In this document: positions 1-40,940 of the stretch, piece by piece
How positions within the stretch are numbered: the first letter of the stretch is position 1
Layout of the letters: each line of letters begins with the position of its first letter
Sequence record: NC_015719.1
DNA: 40,940 nt
DNA from: Escherichia phage K30
Reading direction: 5' to 3' (one strand)
Made by a program: the position numbers and the translations under genes
Notes under the pieces: generated by a model
Database searches by the model: none
Seen by the model: the letters and a program-made list of their open reading frames with translations, nothing else
What the model was told of the DNA's origin: nothing

Positions 1-193
1 TCTCACAGTTTACACTTTTGGTTATCCCCCGGTACCCTCTAAGTTAGCCCAAAGTAACCATAGGCCACCCTAAACCTTCGGTTTAACCTTAGGTTGGACT
101 GTTGGGAACCTTGGGTGATACTATATGTAGTGGTTAGTGTGACCTTGGGATACTATATGTTGATCTCTCTGTATCCCTATCTGTTGGTACTCT

Positions 194-224
194 CTAAGTA
201 TCCACTAAGTATCCACTAAGTAAC
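194..224. repeat. Tandem 11-bp repeat CTAAGTATCCA (about 2.7 copies)
   Basis: Read directly: ctaagtatcca ctaagtatcca ctaagtaac; position is analogous to the short repeats next to the T7 left terminal repeat. Confidence 0.7.
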
Positions 225-334
225 AACCTGAGGTTAGACCTGAGGACATCCATCGACACTATACCTAAGGTTAACTATGCGTCTAACGTTTAGTTACTAT
301 AAGGCTATTGGTGACCATTGTCCATACACCAATC

Positions 335-357
335 AATTAGGTCACACTATAGGGAGA
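335..357 (+). promoter_or_regulatory. Phage RNAP promoter (phiOL-like), aattaggtcacactatagggaga
   Basis: Matches the 23-bp consensus shared by the other 12 promoters; +1 G at about 352. Confidence 0.8.
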
Positions 358-459
358 CACTTAAAGTATTACTAAGAGACCTTTACCATAAAACTACTAT
401 CACTATAGGTCTAACTATAAGACTAACTATAGGTCTAACTAAAAGTTTAACTTTAGGTG

Positions 460-18252: not shown

Positions 18253-18513
18253 ATGGGACTGTTCAAGAAGATTAAGAAGGCCGTCAAGAAGGTAATCAAG
18301 GCACCACTCAAAGCTGTTGGTCTGGCAGCAGATGCACCAAACGTACAGACAGCCGCTGAGACACCCGTGGCAGTACCTCAGGAGCCACCGAAAGAGGTCG
18401 TGGAGGATGTTGAGTCTTCAGCAGACACTGAGTCTGGTAAGAAGAAAACTCGTGCGTCCGGTAAGAAATCCCTCTCGGTTTCCCGAAGCTCGGGCGGTGG
18501 GATTAACCTGTAA
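18253..18513 (+). CDS. 7.3: Gene 7.3 virion protein
   Basis: 86 aa; recalled similarity to T7 gp7.3 (KKAVKKV, C-terminal GKKSLSV.RSSGGGIN). Confidence 0.8.
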   Translation: MGLFKKIKKAVKKVIKAPLKAVGLAADAPNVQTAAETPVAVPQEPPKEVVEDVESSADTESGKKKTRASGKKSLSVSRSSGGGINL

Positions 18514-18524
18514 GGAGGTGACCT

Positions 18525-20132
18525 GTGGCAGAAGTTAAACTCGAAGGCTTCGCAGAGGAGGGAGCCAAGGCGGTGTATGACCGTCTGAAGAACGACCGAC
18601 AACCCTACGAGACACGAGCAGAGTCCTGTGCGCAGTACACGATTCCCTCACTGTTCCCTAAGGACTCCGATAACGCATCAACCGATTATACGACTCCGTG
18701 GCAATCCGTAGGTGCACGTGGCCTGAACAACCTAGCGTCCAAGCTGATGCTGGCACTGTTCCCGATGCAGTCATGGATGAAGTTGACCATTAGTGAATAC
18801 GAAGCTAAGAACCTTCTGGGTGACGCTGAGGGTCTAGCTAAGGTCGATGAAGGTCTCTCGATGGTAGAGCGAATCATCATGAACTACATCGAGTCCAACA
18901 GTTACCGAGTGACTCTCTTTGAGTGCTTGAAGCAACTGTGTGTGGCAGGGAACGCGCTGCTGTACTTACCGGAGCCTGAGGGTTATACCCCGATGAAGCT
19001 CTATCGCCTGAACTCATATGTGGTCCAGCGAGATGCTTTCGGTAACGTACTACAGATTGTCACTCTCGACAAGATTGCGTTCAACGCTCTACCTGAGGAT
19101 GTCCGCAGCCAAGTTGAAGCAGCCCAAGGTGAGCAGAAGGAAGACGCTGAGATTGATGTCTACACCCACGTTTACCTTAACGAAGCCGGAGATGGTTACT
19201 CGAAGTACGAAGAGGTTGCCGAAGAGGTGGTGCCGGGCAGTGAAGCTGAGTATCCGCTCGAAGAGTGTCCGTACATTCCGGTCCGCATGGTCCGTATAGA
19301 TGGTGAATCTTACGGTCGTTCCTACGTGGAAGAGTATCTGGGCGACCTTAAGTCCCTAGAGAACCTCCAAGAGTCTATCGTTAAGATGGCCATGATTACC
19401 GCTAAGGTTATCGGTCTGGTAGACCCGGCAGGTATCACTCAGGTTCGCCGACTCACGGCAGCACAGTCTGGTGCGTTCGTACCGGGCCGTAAGCAGGACA
19501 TTGAGTTTCTCCAGCTGGAGAAGTCTGGTGACTTTACCGTAGCGAAGAACGTAAGCGACACCATTGAGGCTCGCCTCTCGTATGCCTTTATGCTCAACAG
19601 TGCGGTACAACGTACAGGTGAGCGAGTCACAGCTGAAGAGATTCGGTATGTGGCGTCAGAGCTGGAAGATACCCTTGGTGGTGTATACTCGATTCTCTCA
19701 CAGGAACTCCAGCTGCCTCTGGTAAGAGTGCTCTTGAAGCAACTACAAGCCACGCAGCAAATCCCGGAGTTACCTAAAGAGGCCGTCGAGCCAACTATCA
19801 GCACTGGCCTTGAGGCTATCGGACGTGGTCAGGACCTTGACAAGCTGGAGCGGTGCATTGCCGCATGGTCAGCTCTTAAGGCCCTCGAAGGTGATGATGA
19901 CCTCAACTTGGCTAACCTCAAGTTACGCATCGCTAACGCTATCGGACTTGACACGGCTGGTATGCTACTTACTCAGGAAGAGAAGAACGCCCTTATGGCA
20001 CAACAAGGCGCTCAGATTGCTACACAGCAAGGGGCCGCAGCGTTGGGTCAAGGGATGGCTGCACAGGCTACTGCAAGTCCTGAAGCGATGGCAGCGGCTG
20101 CTGACTCGGTAGGTATGCAACCGGGCATGTAA
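18525..20132 (+). CDS. 8: Portal (head-tail connector) protein (T7 gene 8)
   Basis: 535 aa; recalled extensive identity with T7 gp8; GTG start with AAGGAGGTGA RBS. Confidence 0.97.
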   Translation: MAEVKLEGFAEEGAKAVYDRLKNDRQPYETRAESCAQYTIPSLFPKDSDNASTDYTTPWQSVGARGLNNLASKLMLALFPMQSWMKLTISEYEAKNLLGDAEGLAKVDEGLSMVERIIMNYIESNSYRVTLFECLKQLCVAGNALLYLPEPEGYTPMKLYRLNSYVVQRDAFGNVLQIVTLDKIAFNALPEDVRSQVEAAQGEQKEDAEIDVYTHVYLNEAGDGYSKYEEVAEEVVPGSEAEYPLEECPYIPVRMVRIDGESYGRSYVEEYLGDLKSLENLQESIVKMAMITAKVIGLVDPAGITQVRRLTAAQSGAFVPGRKQDIEFLQLEKSGDFTVAKNVSDTIEARLSYAFMLNSAVQRTGERVTAEEIRYVASELEDTLGGVYSILSQELQLPLVRVLLKQLQATQQIPELPKEAVEPTISTGLEAIGRGQDLDKLERCIAAWSALKALEGDDDLNLANLKLRIANAIGLDTAGMLLTQEEKNALMAQQGAQIATQQGAAALGQGMAAQATASPEAMAAAADSVGMQPGM

Positions 20133-20153
20133 TTAGGGCACACTATAGGGAGA
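20131..20153 (+). promoter_or_regulatory. Phage RNAP promoter (phi9-like), aattagggcacactatagggaga, with 5' leader hairpin
   Basis: Consensus match; transcript begins gggagacc-gctt-ggtttccc (8-bp stem). Confidence 0.85.
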
Positions 20154-20195
20154 CCGCTTGGTTTCCCTCTTAGTCTTAACTTTAAGGAGATTGAA

Positions 20196-21152
20196 ATGGC
20201 TGGTGAATCTAACGCAGACGTATACGCATCCTTCGGTGTTAACAGTGCTGTACTGACTGGTAGTACACCTGAGGAGCACCAAGAAAACATGTTGGCTCTT
20301 GATGTTGCTGCCCGTGATGGCGATGATGCAATCGAGCTGAACACCAACAGTGATGACCCGTATGGCTCCGATGTGGACCAGTTCGGTGAACCTGAAGAGG
20401 GCCGTATGCAGGTCCGTATCTCCGCTGACGGTGATGACCCTGAAGAAGAGTCTACCGAAGAAGAACAGCAGGGTGACGAAGAGAGTAAGTCGGAGGAAGT
20501 AGCCGATGACGATGACGATGGTGAACCTGAAGAGTTCAAACCTATTGGTGAAACTCCGGCTGACATCAACGAAGCCTCTCAGCAGCTGGAAGAACACGAA
20601 GCTGGCTTTAACGACATGGTTGCCACTGCAATCGAACGCGGTCTCTCACAGGATGCTGTGACCCGTATTCAGCAGGAGTACCAGAACGAAGACAGTTTGT
20701 CCGATGAGTCTTACCGAGAGCTGGCCGAGGCTGGCTACAGTAAGGCATTCGTCGATGCGTACATTCGCGGTCAGGAAGCTCTGGTCAACCAGTACGTAGA
20801 GAAAGTGATGGACTTCGTAGGAGGCCGTGAGCGCTTCCAGCAGGTATACAGCCACATGCAGACCAATAACCCTGAGGGTGCCGAGGCGCTTATCAAGGCT
20901 TTTGAGTCTCGTGATGTAGCCACCATGAAGACGATTCTGAACCTAGCGGGACAGTCTCGTGATAAAACCTTTGGTAAGAAAGCAGAGCGCTCTATTGCCA
21001 AACGTGCAACCCCAGCGAAACCTGTGGCCCGTAAGGCTGTGGGCTTTGAGTCTCAAGCTGAGATGATTAAGGCGATGTCCGACCCGCGCTACCGTACTGA
21101 CTCTAAGTATCGTCGTGAAGTAGAGCAAAAGGTAATCGACTCTAAGTTTTAA
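20196..21152 (+). CDS. 9: Capsid assembly (scaffolding) protein (T7 gene 9)
   Basis: 318 aa, acidic; recalled similarity to T7 gp9 at both termini (ESNADVYASFGVNSAV; AMSDPRYRTD..YRR.VEQKVIDS.F). Confidence 0.95.
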   Translation: MAGESNADVYASFGVNSAVLTGSTPEEHQENMLALDVAARDGDDAIELNTNSDDPYGSDVDQFGEPEEGRMQVRISADGDDPEEESTEEEQQGDEESKSEEVADDDDDGEPEEFKPIGETPADINEASQQLEEHEAGFNDMVATAIERGLSQDAVTRIQQEYQNEDSLSDESYRELAEAGYSKAFVDAYIRGQEALVNQYVEKVMDFVGGRERFQQVYSHMQTNNPEGAEALIKAFESRDVATMKTILNLAGQSRDKTFGKKAERSIAKRATPAKPVARKAVGFESQAEMIKAMSDPRYRTDSKYRREVEQKVIDSKF

Positions 21153-21173
21153 TTAGGGCCCACTATAGGGAGA
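21151..21173 (+). promoter_or_regulatory. Phage RNAP promoter (phi10-like), aattagggcccactatagggaga
   Basis: Consensus match; about 165 nt upstream of the gene 10 ATG. Confidence 0.85.
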
Positions 21174-21332
21174 CACATCCGGTTCTACTGTAATGTAGAG
21201 TTTGTGCTCCCTTCGAGTTACACAATGAGTATCACCTCGTTTCAAGTAGTACCTCAACAGCTTGGCAACGATAGGCCCGTTTGGTCAGCGTAGTGACTAA
21301 TTCTATACTTAAACAACATAAGGAGATTCAAC

Positions 21333-22367
21333 ATGGCTAACATGCAAGGTGGACAGCAGCTCGGTACTAACCAAGGTAAAGGTCAATCCGCAGCAGACAA
21401 GCTGGCGCTATTCCTGAAAGTATTTGGCGGTGAAGTACTGACCGCATTCGCTCGTACCTCTGTGACCGCCAACCGTCACATGCAGCGTCAAATCAGCTCC
21501 GGTAAGTCCGCACAGTTCCCTGTGATTGGTCGCACCAAGGCTGCTTACCTGCAACCGGGCGAGTCTCTGGATGACAAACGTAAAGACATCAAGCACACAG
21601 AGAAGACCATTAACATTGACGGACTGCTGACTGCTGACGTGCTGATCTACGACATCGAAGACGCGATGAACCACTACGACGTGCGCTCCGAGTACACCTC
21701 TCAGATTGGTGAGTCTCTGGCGATGGCGGCTGATGGTGCGGTTCTGGCAGAACTAGCTGGTCTGATTAACTTGGCGGATGGCGTCAACGAGAACATCGCT
21801 GGTCTGGGCAAACCGTCCCTGCTGGAAGTTGGCGCTAAGGCTGACCTTACCGACCCTGTCAAACTGGGCCAAGCGGTTATCGCACAGCTGACCATTGCTC
21901 GTGCAGCTCTGACCAAGAACTACGTCCCGGCTAACGACCGTACGTTCTACACCACTCCAGACGTGTACTCTGCGATTCTGGCGGCTCTGATGCCTAACGC
22001 TGCGAACTATGCGGCTCTGATTGACCCTGAGCGTGGTTCTATCCGTAACGTGATGGGCTTCGAGGTTGTGGAAGTTCCGCACCTGACTGCTGGTGGTGCT
22101 GGCGATGACCGCCCGGAAGAAGGCACAGATGCGTCCAACCAGAAGCACGCCTTCCCGGCAACTGGTGGTAAGGTTAACAAAGAGAACGTTGTGGGCCTGT
22201 TCCAGCACCGTTCCGCTGTCGGCACCGTTAAGTTGAAAGATCTGGCTCTGGAGCGTGCTCGCCGTGCTGAGTATCAGGCTGACCAGATTATTGCTAAGTA
22301 CGCGATGGGTCACGGCGGTCTGCGTCCAGAATCTGCTGGTGCACTGGTTTTCAAAGCGGGGGCTTAA
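21333..22367 (+). CDS. 10: Major capsid protein 10A (T7 gene 10)
   Basis: 344 aa; recalled extensive identity with T7 gp10A (GGQQ.GTNQGKG, KLALFLKVFGGEVLTAFARTSVT, ADQIIAKYAMGHGGLRPE). Confidence 0.98.
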   Translation: MANMQGGQQLGTNQGKGQSAADKLALFLKVFGGEVLTAFARTSVTANRHMQRQISSGKSAQFPVIGRTKAAYLQPGESLDDKRKDIKHTEKTINIDGLLTADVLIYDIEDAMNHYDVRSEYTSQIGESLAMAADGAVLAELAGLINLADGVNENIAGLGKPSLLEVGAKADLTDPVKLGQAVIAQLTIARAALTKNYVPANDRTFYTTPDVYSAILAALMPNAANYAALIDPERGSIRNVMGFEVVEVPHLTAGGAGDDRPEEGTDASNQKHAFPATGGKVNKENVVGLFQHRSAVGTVKLKDLALERARRAEYQADQIIAKYAMGHGGLRPESAGALVFKAGA

Positions 22368-22504
22368 GAGTAGAAGCCTTTAGTGTGAACGTTGAGAGCG
22401 AAGCGGAGACTACCGTAGAGGCAGTCGCTGAAGTAACTCTAACGCCTCAGCAGAAGGCCGCTATCACACGTGCACGAAATAAGGCACTTAAGTCTCAGGA
22501 ATAA
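21333..22504 (+). CDS. 10B: Minor capsid protein 10B (predicted -1 frameshift product)
   Basis: ggttttc near the 10A stop (about 22346-22352); the -1 frame stays open for 52 codons to TAA at 22502-22504 (checked codon by codon). Confidence 0.55.
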
Positions 22505-22513
22505 TAAGCCAAA

Positions 22514-22551
22514 CCCCTTGGGGACCACTCACGGTCTCTGAGGGGTTTTTT
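22514..22551 (+). terminator. T-phi-like terminator for phage RNAP
   Basis: ccccttggggacc-actcac-ggtctctgagggg followed by tttttt; resembles T7 T-phi (AACCCCTTGGGG...GAGGGGTTTTTTG) from memory. Confidence 0.8.
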
Positions 22552-22568
22552 CGTTAGGAGCTTACAAT

Positions 22569-23147
22569 ATGAACATGCAAGATGCTTACTTTGGGTCTGC
22601 CGCTGAGCTGGATGCTATCAACGAGATGCTCGCAGCCATCGGTGAATCCCCAGTGACCACCCTTGATGAAGATGGTAGTGCAGACGTAGCGAATGCTCGT
22701 CGTATCCTCAACAGGATTAACCGCCAGATTCAATCGAAGGGTTGGGCCTTCAACATCAATGAGTCGGCCACACTGACCCCTGATGCCAGCACTGGGCTTA
22801 TCCCATTCCGTCCGGCCTACCTGTCCATCCTTGGTGGCCAGTACGTTAACCGTGGTGGCTGGGTGTACGATAAGTCGACCGACAGTGACACGTTCTCTGG
22901 ACCAATCACAGTGACTCTTATTACCCTTCAGGATTACGACGAGATGCCTGAATGTTTCCGCCAGTGGATTGTCACCAAGGCCAGCCGTCAGTTCAACTCT
23001 CGGTTCTTCGGAGCTGAGGACGTAGAGAACTCTCTGGCACAGGAAGAGATGGAAGCACGGATGGCGTGCAACGAGTACGAGATGGACTTCGGGCAATACA
23101 ACATGCTTGACGGTGACGCATACGTACAGGGTCTCATCGGTCGTTAA
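22569..23147 (+). CDS. 11: Tail tubular protein A (T7 gene 11)
   Basis: 192 aa; recalled similarity to T7 gp11 ([55 protein letters not shown]). Confidence 0.95.
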
Positions 23148-23169
23148 TCAGAAACTTAAGGAGGACCAA

Positions 23170-25545
23170 ATGGCTCTCGTATCACAATCAATCAAGAACC
23201 TCAAGGGAGGCATTAGCCAGCAGCCTGAAATCCTACGGTACCCAGAACAGGGTTCGATTCAGGTCAACGGTTGGTCCTCCGAGACTGAGGGTCTCCAGAA
23301 GCGACCGCCGATGGTGTTCATCAAGTCCTTAGGAGACCGTGGGTACCTTGGGGAAGACCCGTACGTTCACCTCATCAACCGCGATGAGTACGAGCAGTAT
23401 TATGCTGTGTTCACAGGGAATGACGTTCGGGTATTCGACCTGTCCGGATACGAGTATCAGGTCCGAGGTGACCGCTCGTACGTGACAGTTAATAACCCTA
23501 AGGATAACTTGCGGATGGTCACCGTGGCTGACTACACGTTCATCGTGAACCGTACCCGACAGGTCCGTGAGAACCAGAACGTGACCAACAATGGTACCTT
23601 CAGGGATAACGTGGATGGCATCATTAACGTTCGTGGTGGTCAGTATGGTCGTAAGCTGGAAGTGAACATTAATGGCGTCTGGGTAAGCCACCAGCTTCCA
23701 CCCGGAGACAACGCCAAGGATGACCCGCCGAAGGTTGACGCACAGGCTATCGCTGAGGCCCTAGCGGTTCTTCTCCGCACAGCCCACCCTACGTGGACGT
23801 TCAACGTTGGAACAGGGTTCATTCACTGTATCGCCCCAGCTAACACCACTCTGGATGTGTTCGAAACGAAGGATGGCTACGCCGACCAGTTAATCAACCC
23901 AGTAACCCATTACGTCCAGAGCTTCTCTAAGTTGCCACTGAACGCCCCCGATGGATACATGGTGAAGATTGTTGGGGACACGTCCAAGACCGCCGACCAG
24001 TATTACGTTAAGTACGACAAGAGTCAGAAGGTCTGGAAGGAAACCGTTGGTTGGAACATCTCGGTAGGGTTGGAGTACCACACAATGCCTTGGACGCTTG
24101 TCCGAGCTTCTGATGGTAACTTTGACCTTGGGTATCATGAGTGGAAGGACCGCCGAGCTGGCGATGATGATACCAACCCTCAGCCATCCTTTGTGAACTC
24201 AACTATAACCGACGTGTTCTTCTTCAGGAACCGCTTAGGGTTCATCTCTGGGGAGAACATCGTGATGTCCCGGACCAGTAAATACTTCGAGTTCTACCCA
24301 CCGTCAGTGGCCAATTACACGGATGATGACCCACTAGATGTTGCCGTAAGTCATAACCGGGTGTCGGTCATTAAGTACGCTGTGAGCTTCGCTGAGGAGC
24401 TTCTACTGTGGTCTGATGAGGCACAGTTCGTCCTGTCGGCCAACGGTGTGTTATCCGCTAAGACAGCACAACTGGACCTGACCACCCAGTTCGATGTGTC
24501 AGACCGTGCACGGCCTTACGGTATCGGTAGGAACATCTACTATGCGTCTCCTCGCAGCTCCTTTACGTCCATCATGCGTTACTACGCGGTACAGGATGTA
24601 AGCTCTGTGAAGAACGCAGAGGACATGACAGCTCACGTCCCTAACTACATTCCGAACGGTGTGTACAGCATCAACGGGTCTGGTACGGAGAACTTCGCGT
24701 GTGTACTCACCAAGGGTGCCCCTAGCAAGGTGTTCATCTACAAGTTCCTCTACATGGACGAGAACATTCGGCAGCAGTCATGGTCACACTGGGACTTCGG
24801 GGATGGTGTGGAGGTGGTGGCCGCAAACTGTATCAACTCAACGATGTACCTACTGATGCGGAACGCCTACAACGTGTGGATAGCTGCGGTGGACTTCAAG
24901 AAGAACTCTACGGACTTCCCGTTCGAGCCTTACAGGTTCCACGTGGACGCCAAGCGGTCGTATCACATCTCAGAGACTGCGTATGACATCGAGACTAACC
25001 AGACGGTAGTGAACGTCAAGGACATCTACGGTGCATCGTTCTCGAAGGGTACAGTGGCAATCTGCGAGAGTGATGGGAAAATCACTACGTATGAGCCGAT
25101 GGGTGACTCTTGGAACTCAACCCCAGACATTCGTATTAGCGGTGACATTGCTGGTAAGGATATCGTCATTGGGTTCCTGTATGACTTCCAGTATGTGTTC
25201 AGTCGCTTCCTCATCAAGCAGGAGCAGAACGATGGCACAACGTCCACAGAGGATGCAGGACGCTTACAGCTTCGTAGAGCATGGGTGAACTATCAGGACA
25301 CTGGTGCGTTCACTGTGAGCGTCAATAATGGTAGCCGTGAGTTCAACTATCTGGTCAACGCCAGAGTAGGTTCTACCGGTCTACGTCTGGGACAGAAGGC
25401 AACAACCACTGGTCAGTATCGTTTCCCGGTGACAGGTAACGCTCTGTATCAGAAGGTGTCCCTGAGTTCCTTCAATGCTTCCCCGGTGTCAATCATTGGG
25501 TGCGGCTGGGAGGGTAACTACAGTAGACGCGCCAACGGTATTTAA
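23170..25545 (+). CDS. 12: Tail tubular protein B (T7 gene 12)
   Basis: Recalled similarity to T7 gp12 from MAL.SQSIKNLKGGISQQP to GCGWEGNY.RR; start at ATG 23170 with AAGGAGGA RBS, not the track start 23107. Confidence 0.95.
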   Translation: MALVSQSIKNLKGGISQQPEILRYPEQGSIQVNGWSSETEGLQKRPPMVFIKSLGDRGYLGEDPYVHLINRDEYEQYYAVFTGNDVRVFDLSGYEYQVRGDRSYVTVNNPKDNLRMVTVADYTFIVNRTRQVRENQNVTNNGTFRDNVDGIINVRGGQYGRKLEVNINGVWVSHQLPPGDNAKDDPPKVDAQAIAEALAVLLRTAHPTWTFNVGTGFIHCIAPANTTLDVFETKDGYADQLINPVTHYVQSFSKLPLNAPDGYMVKIVGDTSKTADQYYVKYDKSQKVWKETVGWNISVGLEYHTMPWTLVRASDGNFDLGYHEWKDRRAGDDDTNPQPSFVNSTITDVFFFRNRLGFISGENIVMSRTSKYFEFYPPSVANYTDDDPLDVAVSHNRVSVIKYAVSFAEELLLWSDEAQFVLSANGVLSAKTAQLDLTTQFDVSDRARPYGIGRNIYYASPRSSFTSIMRYYAVQDVSSVKNAEDMTAHVPNYIPNGVYSINGSGTENFACVLTKGAPSKVFIYKFLYMDENIRQQSWSHWDFGDGVEVVAANCINSTMYLLMRNAYNVWIAAVDFKKNSTDFPFEPYRFHVDAKRSYHISETAYDIETNQTVVNVKDIYGASFSKGTVAICESDGKITTYEPMGDSWNSTPDIRISGDIAGKDIVIGFLYDFQYVFSRFLIKQEQNDGTTSTEDAGRLQLRRAWVNYQDTGAFTVSVNNGSREFNYLVNARVGSTGLRLGQKATTTGQYRFPVTGNALYQKVSLSSFNASPVSIIGCGWEGNYSRRANGI

Positions 25546-40540: not shown

Positions 40541-40940
40541 GTGTATATCTCACAGTTTACACTTTTGGTTATCCCCCGGTACCCTCTAAGTTAGCCCAAA
40601 GTAACCATAGGCCACCCTAAACCTTCGGTTTAACCTTAGGTTGGACTGTTGGGAACCTTGGGTGATACTATATGTAGTGGTTAGTGTGACCTTGGGATAC
40701 TATATGTTGATCTCTCTGTATCCCTATCTGTTGGTACTCTCTAAGTATCCACTAAGTATCCACTAAGTAACAACCTGAGGTTAGACCTGAGGACATCCAT
40801 CGACACTATACCTAAGGTTAACTATGCGTCTAACGTTTAGTTACTATAAGGCTATTGGTGACCATTGTCCATACACCAATCAATTAGGTCACACTATAGG
40901 GAGACACTTAAAGTATTACTAAGAGACCTTTACCATAAAA
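40541..40940. repeat. Right copy of 400-bp direct repeat (includes a second copy of the phiOL-like promoter at about 40875-40897)
   Basis: Identical to positions 1-400 by direct reading. Confidence 0.8.

What the first reader, a model, noticed from the sequence alone, without database searches (positions are those of the whole stretch)
21168..21332. Unusually long leader between the phi10-like promoter and the capsid gene
About 165 nt separate the predicted +1 (21168) from the gene 10 ATG, versus roughly 60 nt in T7. The leader lacks the GGGAGACC...GGTTTCCC hairpin found at the phi9 and phi17 starts in this genome and contains no convincing ORF. It could hold a regulatory RNA structure or be the remnant of a deleted gene.
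Basis: seen in the sequence. Interest (0 to 1): 0.4.

Follow-up and report, generated by a model that had tools for sequence, protein, structure and literature searches.

The report
Modular structured leader of capsid mRNA
The 165-base stretch between the capsid-gene promoter and the capsid gene of this Klebsiella T7-like phage is not a dead gene but a chain of small folded RNA modules, one swappable, one conserved across many phage genera and one optional, whose exact roles are still untested.

Summary
The measurement is right: +1 at 21168, gene 10 ATG at 21333, so a 165-nt leader against 63 nt in T7. It is long only relative to T7. T3 has 141 nt, K11 has 210 nt, and 70 distinct relatives range from 106 to 267 nt.

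The claim that the 5' hairpin is missing is wrong. Bases 21168-21211 form a longer hairpin with the same GGGAG/CUCCC closure (-17.7 kcal/mol, z -3.5).

The leader has four parts:
- **A (21168-21211):** a 5'-terminal hairpin cassette. Relatives with 88-100% identical flanks carry at least 12 unrelated versions of it.
- **B (21215-21255):** a two-helix hairpin found in over 500 phage genomes of at least six genera, including T3 but not T7. It shows compensatory base changes and has no Rfam match or GenBank annotation.
- **D (21259-21300):** an optional two-hairpin element, seen in about a third of relatives. It also occurs next to tRNA genes in two unrelated phages.
- **The ribosome-binding region.**

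There is no conserved upstream ORF and no sign of a gene remnant.

Most likely A protects the mRNA 5' end, as in T7, and B is a cis-acting stability or processing element. B's and D's roles are inferred, not shown. This is a new variant of a known kind, of moderate interest.

The parts
21151..21173 (+). phi10-type phage RNA polymerase promoter (-17 to +6). +1 is G21168. The gene 9 stop codon TAA (21150-21152) abuts it.
   Evidence: Matches the genome's promoter consensus with no mismatches, one of 12 sites against 0 expected. The homologous site is annotated 'phi10' in K11, BA14, T3, Kvp1 and MmP1.
21168..21211 (+). Module A: 5'-terminal hairpin cassette. GGGAG/CUCCC and CACA/UGUG form the closing stem around an inner hairpin, UUCUAC-UGUAAU-GUAGAG.
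   Evidence: -17.7 kcal/mol, z -3.5, 0 of 200 shuffles as stable. The only other carrier (K16PH164C3) has C7 changed to U, which keeps the pair as G.U. Relatives carry at least 12 unrelated alleles, nearly all folding with nt 1-5 paired to the CUCCC just before module B. The ends resemble the tRNA-like phi9-type cassette, but the T-arm is missing.
21215..21255 (+). Module B: conserved bipartite hairpin. P1 is GAGUUAC (21215-21221) with GUACCUC (21249-21255). P2 is AAUGAG (21224-21229) with CUCGUU (21236-21241). The loop is UAUCAC, and UCAA lies unpaired on the 3' side.
   Evidence: The fold in isolation gives this structure at -8.5 kcal/mol, z -2.1. A plus B together give -27.4 kcal/mol, z -3.0. 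P2 is paired in 25 of 25 distinct variants, with an A-U to U-A swap and a G-C to G-U change. P1 is 79% paired, with an A-U to G-C swap. The covariance model finds one copy in the window (21211-21258, 73 bits) and one in T3 (62 bits). It is present in 503 phage records.
21259..21300 (+). Module D: optional two-hairpin element, AGCUUGGCAACGAUAGGCCCGUUUGGUCAGCGUAGUGACUAA. P1 is GGC (21264-21266) with GCC (21275-21277). P2 is UGGUCA (21282-21287) with UGACUA (21294-21299).
   Evidence: Found in 183 phage records, against 503 for B. The third P1 pair is C-G, A-U or G-C in different phages. All P2 changes are compatible with G.U wobble, and 97.5% of cells are paired. The covariance model finds one copy per genome and recovers the untrained 88-kb contig copy at 46 bits. 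It is not thermodynamically unusual (z 0.05).
21301..21332 (+). Translation initiation region: an A/U-rich spacer, then the Shine-Dalgarno sequence AAGGAG at 21320-21325, 7 nt before the ATG.
   Evidence: The sequence TAAACAACATAAGGAGATTCAACATG is conserved across genera. The predicted unpaired probability of SD..AUG+3 is 0.58.
21333..22367 (+). Gene 10A, major capsid protein (344 aa, MANMQGGQQLG...).
   Evidence: ORF list. Homologues are annotated as major capsid or head protein. A T-phi-like terminator lies at 22511-22548.
20196..21152 (+). Gene 9, scaffolding protein. It bounds the leader on the left.
   Evidence: ORF list. Homologues are annotated as head assembly or scaffolding protein.
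21225..21293 (+). 22-codon ATG-initiated open frame inside B and D. Judged not to be a gene.
   Evidence: The ATG lies in the P2 stem and is TTG in T3-like, 140f and L098 variants. All differences between the Przondovirus and Berlinvirus versions are non-synonymous, while codons 5-10 are identical at every base. Stop position, frame relative to gene 10 and C-termini all differ among 70 leaders.

Best explanation
The 165 nt are the 5' untranslated region of the late capsid mRNA. It is built from independently folding RNA modules placed in series.

(1) Module A pairs the first five transcribed bases (pppGGGAG) with CUCCC and stacks an inner hairpin on top. As in the T7 phi10 leader and E. coli ompA, a base-paired 5' end shields the transcript from 5'-end-dependent RNase E attack. 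Any stable structure will do, so this position tolerates wholesale replacement by recombination between the conserved promoter and module B.

(2) Module B is a conserved bipartite hairpin that always lies 2-5 nt after the cassette, but at a variable distance (about 44 to about 140 nt) from the ribosome-binding site. It therefore acts on the RNA itself rather than on ribosome binding. It could be a second barrier to nuclease entry or scanning, a defined processing or protein-recognition site, or both.

(3) Module D is an optional accessory structured element.

(4) The A/U-rich spacer and the AAGGAG site stay unstructured and drive high-level translation.

Shown here: the coordinates, the folds, the modular and mosaic architecture, the conservation and covariation of B and D, the absence of a coding signal, and the absence of any known RNA family. 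Inferred: stabilisation by A (by analogy with T7) and the cis-acting roles of B and D.
For: - Promoter and coordinates.
- A is a significantly stable 5'-terminal hairpin. Among 50 distinct module A sequences from relatives (about 14 unrelated allele families), nearly all fold with nt 1-5 paired to the CUCCC before B; the exceptions are the Przondovirus copies of the IME321-type allele and one further allele.
- The stabilising role of the T7 gene 10 5' stem-loop, and of stable 5' stem-loops generally, is stated in PMC2254391.
- Cassette replacement: flanks are 88-100% identical, while A is either at least 90% identical or unrelated. The window allele occurs in 1 of 50,697 phage records. The K5-type and IME321-type alleles occur in 56 and 67 records, always as one copy at this site.
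- B: structure and covariation, a single copy per genome, and presence in 503 records plus T3.
- B keeps a fixed position after A but a variable distance to the ATG.
- D.
- Nothing in Rfam matches any module.
Against: - There are no expression, half-life or end-mapping data for any of these phages, so every functional statement is an inference.
- B is only modestly stable (-8.5 kcal/mol, 9 of 200 shuffles as good). RNAalifold supports only P2. The compensatory changes probably reflect few independent events.
- Much of B is conserved in sequence, including unpaired UCAAGUAGUA. That points to specific recognition, not a generic barrier.
- D folds no better than shuffled sequence.
- In the Przondovirus copies of the IME321-type allele, the first 19 nt are unpaired in the consensus fold. 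So 5'-end sequestration is not universal.
- T7 expresses its capsid gene at very high level without B or D.
- Deleting or shuffling B in silico does not change predicted RBS accessibility (0.538 against 0.533 and 0.519).
Confidence: 0.55

Rival explanations
1. Processing-site model. B, and possibly the irregular hairpin of A, is cut by a host endoribonuclease such as RNase III or RNase E. The cut would separate a stable 5' leader fragment (A plus most of B, roughly 80 nt) from the capsid mRNA, or would resolve read-through transcripts coming from phi9 and phi6.5.
For: B is an irregular hairpin with an asymmetric internal loop on its 3' side (UCAA). From my own knowledge, that loosely recalls the layout of T7 R1.1-type RNase III sites, and several T7 RNase III sites lie right next to phage promoters. 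B's position is fixed relative to the cassette and not to the RBS. Sequence conservation of unpaired bases suggests specific recognition.
Against: B has only about 14 bp. It lacks the ACUUAAAG-type repeats seen at the probable RNase III sites of this genome (5893 and 17729 leaders). No RNase III site is annotated in this leader in T3, K11, BA14 or Kvp1. A cut would leave the capsid mRNA with an unprotected monophosphate 5' end.
Confidence: 0.2
2. DNA-level mosaic model. The modules are neutral or selfish insertions. The promoter and B are simply homology anchors between which recombination swaps DNA, and D and C are small mobile inserts with no role in capsid expression.
For: A is replaced wholesale between near-identical flanks. 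The same cassette is found at phi9 in Przondoviruses and at phi10 in a Berlinvirus-like contig. D and C are present or absent in all combinations. D also occurs in unrelated phage families.
Against: Neutral DNA would not keep B nearly unchanged across at least six genera while gene 9 third-codon positions diverge. It would not produce compensatory or G.U-compatible changes specific to the sense strand in B, D and the IME321-type cassette. All copies of D lie in the direction of transcription.
Confidence: 0.13
3. Leader-peptide model. The ATG at 21225 starts a short upstream ORF (22 codons here) whose translation modulates gene 10.
For: The ATG is present in all Przondovirus, Berlinvirus and Helsettvirus variants, with GAG 7 nt upstream. 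In 28 of 70 leaders the frame ends at TAA overlapping the gene 10 ATG (ATGGCTAA). Some GenBank records call a 'hypothetical protein' here.
Against: The ATG is TTG in T3-like, 140f and L098 variants, as half of a compensated stem pair. There is no real Shine-Dalgarno sequence. All differences are non-synonymous while codons 5-10 are invariant at every base. Frame, length (11 to over 40 codons) and C-terminus are not conserved, and in some leaders the frame runs into gene 10. PHROGs gives no match.
Confidence: 0.03
4. Gene-remnant model. The extra roughly 100 nt are the decayed remains of a gene lost between genes 9 and 10.
For: The intergenic length varies among relatives (134-282 nt).
Against: No ORF longer than 34 aa exists on either strand and no family matches. 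No relative among the 70 leaders carries a gene there. The sequence resolves into short conserved structured modules instead.
Confidence: 0.03

Closest known systems
Phage T7 gene 10 (phi10) leader
   Same: It starts at +1 of a class III-type phage promoter with GGGAGA. The 5' end is paired into a stem-loop closed by GGGAG.../...CUCCC-like strands. An A/U-rich spacer and a strong AAGGAG site precede the capsid ATG. The 5' stem-loop is a documented mRNA stabiliser (PMC2254391).
   Different: T7 has 63 nt and one 8-bp hairpin. The window has 165 nt, a 15-bp composite hairpin with an unrelated interior, and modules B and D, which T7 lacks.
Phage T3 phi10 leader (141 nt) and those of K11, BA14, Kvp1 and fPS16
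   Same: These are homologous leaders with the same order: promoter, 5' cassette, B, RBS. B is recovered in T3 at 62 bits.
   Different: They carry different cassette alleles. T3, BA14, Kvp1 and fPS16 lack D. K11 has an extra module C. None of these records annotates anything inside the leader.
E. coli ompA 5' UTR stabiliser (5'-terminal hairpin hp1 plus internal hairpin hp2 before the RBS). From my own knowledge and PMC2254391.
   Same: A long leader with a 5'-terminal hairpin followed by a second hairpin and an unstructured RBS segment. The stabilisation is independent of the hairpin's sequence.
   Different: There is no sequence relationship. ompA is a host mRNA made by host polymerase. Stabilisation has not been measured for the phage leader.
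T7-group RNase III processing sites (R-sites)
   Same: Irregular hairpins in intergenic, often promoter-adjacent, positions of T7-like genomes.
   Different: B is shorter (about 14 bp), lacks the ACUUAAAG-type signature of this genome's probable R-sites, and is not annotated as an R-site in any curated relative.
T7 phi9 leader / tRNA-like 5' cassette of Przondovirus phi9 leaders
   Same: The window's module A shares the 5' GGGAGACACAUCC.G and 3' UUYGUGYUYCC ends of this cassette.
   Different: The window allele lacks the T-arm-like hairpin (GAAGG-UUCGAGU-CCUUC) and has a different inner hairpin. The window's own phi9 leader is the short 48-nt type.

Membership tests
T7-group late-promoter leader with 5'-terminal stabilising stem-loop | Begins at +1 of a phage RNA polymerase promoter with GGGAGA. 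| tested here: met
   The homologous site is annotated phi10 in K11 and T3.
T7-group late-promoter leader with 5'-terminal stabilising stem-loop | The first transcribed bases are paired in a stable hairpin. | tested here: met
   -17.7 kcal/mol, z -3.5, with nt 1-5 paired to CUCCC. The same closure is seen in nearly all alleles.
T7-group late-promoter leader with 5'-terminal stabilising stem-loop | The hairpin lengthens mRNA half-life. | not testable with these tools
   Needs rifampicin or T7-RNAP shut-off decay assays with stem mutants.
T7-type RNase III processing site (for module B) | An irregular hairpin of roughly two helical turns with an internal loop, carrying the sequence signature of the genome's other R-sites. 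| tested here: not met
   B has about 14 bp in 41 nt and no ACUUAAAG-type repeats. No annotation exists in curated relatives.
T7-type RNase III processing site (for module B) | Cleavage by RNase III in vivo or in vitro. | not testable with these tools
   Needs end mapping in wild-type and rnc hosts.
Upstream ORF / leader peptide | A conserved start codon with an RBS, a conserved reading frame and a codon-type substitution pattern. | tested here: not met
   ATG changes to TTG within a compensated stem pair. Frame and C-terminus are not conserved. Substitutions are non-synonymous only.
Any described RNA family (Rfam 15) | A covariance-model match at or near the gathering score. | tested here: not met
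   No match in the leader at E up to 10 in the window, or at E up to 5 in the gene 9/10 intergenic regions of 14 relatives.
Conserved structured cis-RNA motif (for modules B and D) | Base pairs maintained by compensatory or wobble changes across divergent sequences, above controls. | tested here: inconclusive
   B: 88.6% of cells paired against 21-55% in slid controls, 12 doubly changed cells against 3.8 expected, 0 of 500 shuffles as high. But only P2 is found by RNAalifold and there are few independent events. D: 97.5% paired, one covarying pair with three states, 6 of 500 shuffles as high, from only 9 sequences.
Sigma-70 promoter inside module D | -35 and -10 hexamers above chance and conserved. 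| tested here: not met
   One 9-of-12 match (TGGTCA-16-TATACT) against 0.9 expected. The -10 hexamer is TATTCT or TATTCG in relatives.
Decayed protein-coding gene | Residual ORF or protein-level similarity, or an intact gene at the site in relatives. | tested here: not met

The most novel reading that the evidence does not exclude
The start of the most abundant late transcripts of T7-like phages may be a swap site for interchangeable structured RNA domains. Some of these are tRNA-like, with an acceptor/T-arm minihelix at phi9 and, in one contig, at phi10. Together with the conserved modules B and D, which are new RNA motifs (D is shared with tRNA regions of unrelated phages), the leader could be processed into abundant small RNAs. 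Those RNAs could act in trans, for example as decoys for host RNA-targeting or tRNA-targeting defences. The allele diversity would then reflect an arms race rather than neutral turnover.
Probability: 0.12. Interest if true: 0.8.

Novelty: new variant of a known kind. Interest (0 to 1): 0.5.

Why it matters
The T7 phi10 leader is one of the most used expression elements in biotechnology, and it is treated as the archetype. These data show that T7 is the minimal outlier. Most relatives, including T3, K11, KP32 and the Berlin, Helsett and Pektos groups, carry a longer, modular leader. That leader has an unannotated, conserved hairpin (B) and a hot-swappable 5' structured cassette.

If B or the cassettes affect mRNA life-time or processing, they are ready-made parts for tuning expression from phage polymerases. 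They would also matter for engineering therapeutic Klebsiella phages.

If the cassettes or D act in trans, they would be a new class of phage non-coding RNA. At the least, several GenBank 'hypothetical protein' calls over this region are probably spurious.

Tried and rejected
- **Rfam scans** of the window region and of 14 relatives found nothing in the leader.
- **tRNA/tmRNA scan** of the window and 13 loci found nothing.
- **SD sequestration.** B contains AUCACCUC, identical to the 16S 3' end, but CCUC can pair with only 3 nt of AAGGAGAU, and Berlinvirus and T3 variants lack it (by eye). Rejected.
- **B as an insulator of the RBS.** Deleting or shuffling B in 70 leaders leaves predicted SD/AUG accessibility unchanged (0.538, 0.533, 0.519). 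Rejected.
- **B:D alternative helix** (UCGUUUCAAG with CUUGGCAACGA). It appears in the whole-leader MFE and centroid. The natural variants L032 and L098 break it without compensation, while B's own P2 stays compensated. Rejected.
- **Long-range complementarity** of the leader to the rest of the genome: only one 12-mer, about what chance gives, and it falls in a window-specific base. An RNAduplex scan timed out.
- **Sigma-70 promoter in D:** chance level and not conserved.
- **Host origin.** There is no similarity in 5,426 E. coli genomes. The D pattern in 100,044 species genomes hit only a 679-bp Klebsiella-phage contaminant contig. A metagenome scan for D with free P1 bases found only T7-like phages, the 88-kb contig and one chance hit.
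- **Wasted or weak calls.** One pattern had the wrong spacer length. One loose pattern gave mostly chance matches (7 true T3-like hits). One looser D pattern gave only chance hits in coding DNA.
- **Nucleotide-diversity comparison** of B against codon positions. Discarded because the loci were selected by an exact B pattern, which is ascertainment bias.
- **Literature searches** found no description of these modules. One large screen mentions five candidate RNAs upstream of 'PHA00201, a major capsid protein', with no sequences available to compare.

Full report
**What the window is.** The 40,940-bp window is a complete T7-group genome with an exact 393-bp terminal repeat. Its nearest database relative is Klebsiella phage vB_Kpn_K16PH164C3, genus Przondovirus. 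It also matches an IMG/VR contig of identical length. Twelve sites match the K11-type promoter consensus TTAGGGCNCACTATAGGGAGA, against none expected.

**Checking the observation.**
- The promoter at 21153-21173 matches that consensus perfectly. +1 is G21168, and gene 10 (MANMQGGQQLG..., 344 aa) starts at 21333, so the leader is 165 nt.
- The T7 leader is 63 nt.
- Other gene-proximal promoters of this genome have leaders of about 30-85 nt.
- phi9 and phi17 do begin with GGGAGACCG[CA]UUGGUUUCCC (-13.5 kcal/mol).
- The statement that the phi10 leader lacks such a hairpin is true only of the literal string. Bases 21168-21211 fold into GGGAG.CACA[...UUCUAC-UGUAAU-GUAGAG..]UGUG.CUCCC at -17.7 kcal/mol, z -3.5, with 0 of 200 shuffles as stable.
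- The length is unusual only relative to T7. T3 has 141 nt (phi10 at 20733-20755, ATG at 20891). K11 has 210 nt. Seventy distinct leaders collected from relatives span 106-267 nt.

**Anatomy from comparison.** I aligned the gene 9/10 intergenic regions of 14 GenBank relatives and about 90 IMG/VR and metagenome loci. The leader falls apart into modules.

**Module A (21168-21211).**
- It is a hypervariable cassette. Relatives carry about 14 unrelated allele families of 22-97 nt.
- Almost every one folds so that nt 1-5 pair with the CUCCC that immediately precedes module B.
- Flanking gene 9 and gene 10 sequence is 88-100% identical between phages, whereas A is either at least 90% identical or unrelated. 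So A is exchanged rather than drifting.
- The window's allele is rare. It occurs in one other record out of 50,697, and that copy differs by a C-to-U change that keeps a G.U pair.
- Other alleles occur in 56 and 67 records, always as a single copy at this site.
- These inserts are not junk. The IME321/BA14/140f-type allele, shared by Przondovirus, Berlinvirus and the unclassified Klebsiella phage 140f, has a 22-pair consensus fold with compensatory changes at 11 pairs and none broken.
- The phi9 leader of the same phages is polymorphic in the same way.
- Its commonest 88-nt allele is the same cassette that sits at phi10 in a Berlinvirus-like contig.
- That cassette contains a perfect tRNA T-arm followed by the 3' strand of the closing stem. 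It gives a sub-threshold match to a tRNA model (20.8 bits).
- It resembles the layout of T7's own 85-nt phi9 leader.
- The window's A shares the two ends of that cassette but lacks the T-arm.

**Module B (21215-21255; model match 21211-21258).**
- It is the conserved core. It occurs once per genome in 503 phage records, from Klebsiella, Yersinia, Escherichia, Salmonella, Enterobacter, Erwinia, Pectobacterium and other hosts.
- It also occurs in more diverged form in the T3 group (62 bits in T3).
- It is absent from the T7 region searched (record 18300-24300, which spans phi6.5 to T-phi and includes the phi10 leader) and from the MmP1 gene 9/10 region.
- It folds into two stacked helices with an unpaired UCAA on the 3' side (-8.5 kcal/mol, z -2.1). 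A plus B together give -27.4 kcal/mol, z -3.0.
- Across 25 distinct variants, P2 (AAUGAG/CUCGUU) is paired in every sequence. It shows an A-U to U-A double change in the T3-like, 140f and L098 lineages and a G-C to G-U change in a Pectobacterium phage.
- P1 is 79% paired, with an A-U to G-C double change. The named structure beats slid controls (88.6% paired against 21-55%) and all 500 shuffles.
- RNAalifold alone recovers only P2, and the number of independent events is small. I therefore rate the covariation as suggestive, not conclusive.
- The loop varies freely (UAUCAC, AACCAA, UUCUAAAA). Stem sequences and the 3' single strand UCAAGUAGUA are nearly invariant, which points to sequence-specific recognition.
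- B always lies 2-5 nt after the cassette, yet its distance to the ATG ranges from about 44 to about 140 nt because modules C and D can be inserted after it.

**Module D (21259-21300).**
- It is optional, present in 183 records against 503 for B.
- It forms two small hairpins. The third pair of P1 is C-G, A-U or G-C in different phages, and all changes in P2 are wobble-compatible on the sense strand.
- It is no more stable than shuffled sequence.
- D also occurs without B in the gene 10 leaders of Morganella MmP1 and a Providencia phage.
- Outside the T7 group it occurs in Proteus phage Myduc (Chaseviridae), about 110 nt upstream of a tRNA-Arg gene.
- It also occurs in an 88-kb viral contig, directly after the T-arm/acceptor 3' end of an uncalled tRNA-like gene within a tRNA cluster.
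- The covariance model recovers that untrained copy at 46 bits.
- Scans of 241 million metagenome records and 100,044 species genomes found no other context.

**The last 32 nt.** This is the conserved translation initiation region, with AAGGAG at 21320-21325. It is predicted to be largely unpaired.

**What it is not.**
- No Rfam family matches any module.
- The only conserved ATG (21225) lies in the P2 stem and becomes TTG as half of a compensated pair. It is followed by frames of inconsistent length, phase and sequence. There is no leader peptide.
- No ORF, family match or intact homologue supports a decayed gene.
- The sigma-70-like match in D is at chance level and not conserved.
- The anti-SD-like AUCACCUC cannot pair usefully with the SD and is lineage-specific.
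- The B:D helix favoured by single-sequence folding is broken, uncompensated, in natural variants.
- There is no similarity to E. coli genomes.

**Mechanism.** The best-supported reading is a composite 5' UTR.
- A is a 5'-end-sequestering stabiliser of the kind documented for T7 gene 10 and ompA (PMC2254391). This explains why structure is kept while sequence is freely replaced.
- The constant promoter on one side and B on the other provide homology for cassette exchange.
- B's placement, tied to the cassette and not to the RBS, together with its sequence conservation, argues for action on the RNA: a nuclease barrier, a processing site or a protein site. It argues against direct control of ribosome binding. 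In-silico deletion of B does not alter RBS accessibility.
- I give the general model 0.55. A specific processing-site version gets 0.2, a purely DNA-level mosaic about 0.13, and the uORF and gene-remnant ideas about 0.03 each.

**Comparison with what is known.**
- This is the homologue of the T7 and T3 phi10 leaders. It meets the two sequence-testable criteria of a T7-type 5' stabilising leader.
- It differs from T7 in length and in carrying B and D.
- B does not meet the testable criteria of a T7-type RNase III site.
- Curated records of T3, K11, BA14, Kvp1 and MmP1 annotate nothing in the leader.
- I found no paper describing the modules. One large computational screen reports five candidate RNAs upstream of a major capsid protein family, but without accessible sequences.

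**Verdict.** It is a new variant of a known kind, of moderate interest (0.5). The most interesting open possibility is that the swappable, partly tRNA-like cassettes and module D have functions beyond mRNA stabilisation.

Noticed in passing
window 21259-21300; L017 1500-1541 (Proteus phage Myduc NC_048803); L035 9274-9316, minus strand (IMGVR_UViG_3300013023_000001, 88 kb): Module D is shared with two phages unrelated to T7. In both it lies in tRNA regions: about 110 nt upstream of tRNA-Arg in Myduc, and directly after a tRNA-like T-arm/acceptor 3' end in the 88-kb contig. It lies on the transcribed strand each time, and its P1 stem covaries.
   Followed up: partly
L026, L022 and others (phi9 leaders, about 1 kb upstream of phi10); L060 11596-11653, minus strand; L191 3566-3650 (T7 phi9 leader): phi9 leaders are also swappable cassettes of 48, 88 and about 100 nt. 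The 88-nt type has a perfect tRNA T-arm (GAAGG-UUCGAGU-CCUUC) followed by the closing-stem 3' strand, like an acceptor/T-arm minihelix. Its Rfam tRNA-Sec match is sub-threshold (20.8 bits). It also occurs at phi10 in one Berlinvirus-like contig, and T7's own phi9 leader has the same layout.
   Followed up: partly
L005, L011, L016, L112 and others (module A of the IME321, BA14 and 140f types): An 85-95-nt cassette allele shared by Przondovirus, Berlinvirus and the unclassified Klebsiella phage 140f. It has a 22-pair consensus structure, 11 pairs with compensatory changes and none broken. It looks like a bona fide structured RNA of unknown function.
   Followed up: partly
L004, L009, L011, L015 (K11) and others, between modules B and D: Optional module C, about 55 nt (ACTGACGCGACCTTAGGGCAAGACCTTATGATAGGCGCGGAGAAT...). 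It ends in a C/A homopolymer tract of variable length (ACCCAAAGAG to ACCCCCCCAAAAGAG). It is absent from the window.
   Followed up: no
window 1-393 and 40548-40940: An exact 393-bp direct terminal repeat containing a phage promoter copy (+1 at 352 and 40899).
   Followed up: partly
L035 9320-9580, minus strand: An unannotated tRNA-like gene: acceptor GUUGAUG/UGUCAAC and T-arm GCAGG-UUCGAGU-CCUGC, about 118 nt, not called by ARAGORN. Upstream of it is a tmRNA-tag-like frame, GCAAATGATAACACGTTCAGAGCAGCAGCCTAATAA (ANDNTFRAAA**), with a weak beta-tmRNA Rfam hit.
   Followed up: no
L190 (NZ_JABANE010000361.1, Flammeovirga aprica JL-4, 679 bp): This scaffold of a Bacteroidota genome assembly is a fragment of a Klebsiella Przondovirus (gene 9 end, phi10 leader, gene 10 start). 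It is almost certainly contamination.
   Followed up: no
L006 494-595 (Tokugawa), L112 226-363 (140f), L002 629-757, and several hits: GenBank records annotate short 'hypothetical protein' CDSs over the phi10 leader. Given the non-coding conservation pattern, these are probably spurious gene calls.
   Followed up: partly
window 22385-22504, with the terminator at 22511-22548: A 39-codon open frame between the gene 10A stop and the T-phi-like terminator. It probably represents the 10B frameshift extension known from T7 and T3.
   Followed up: no
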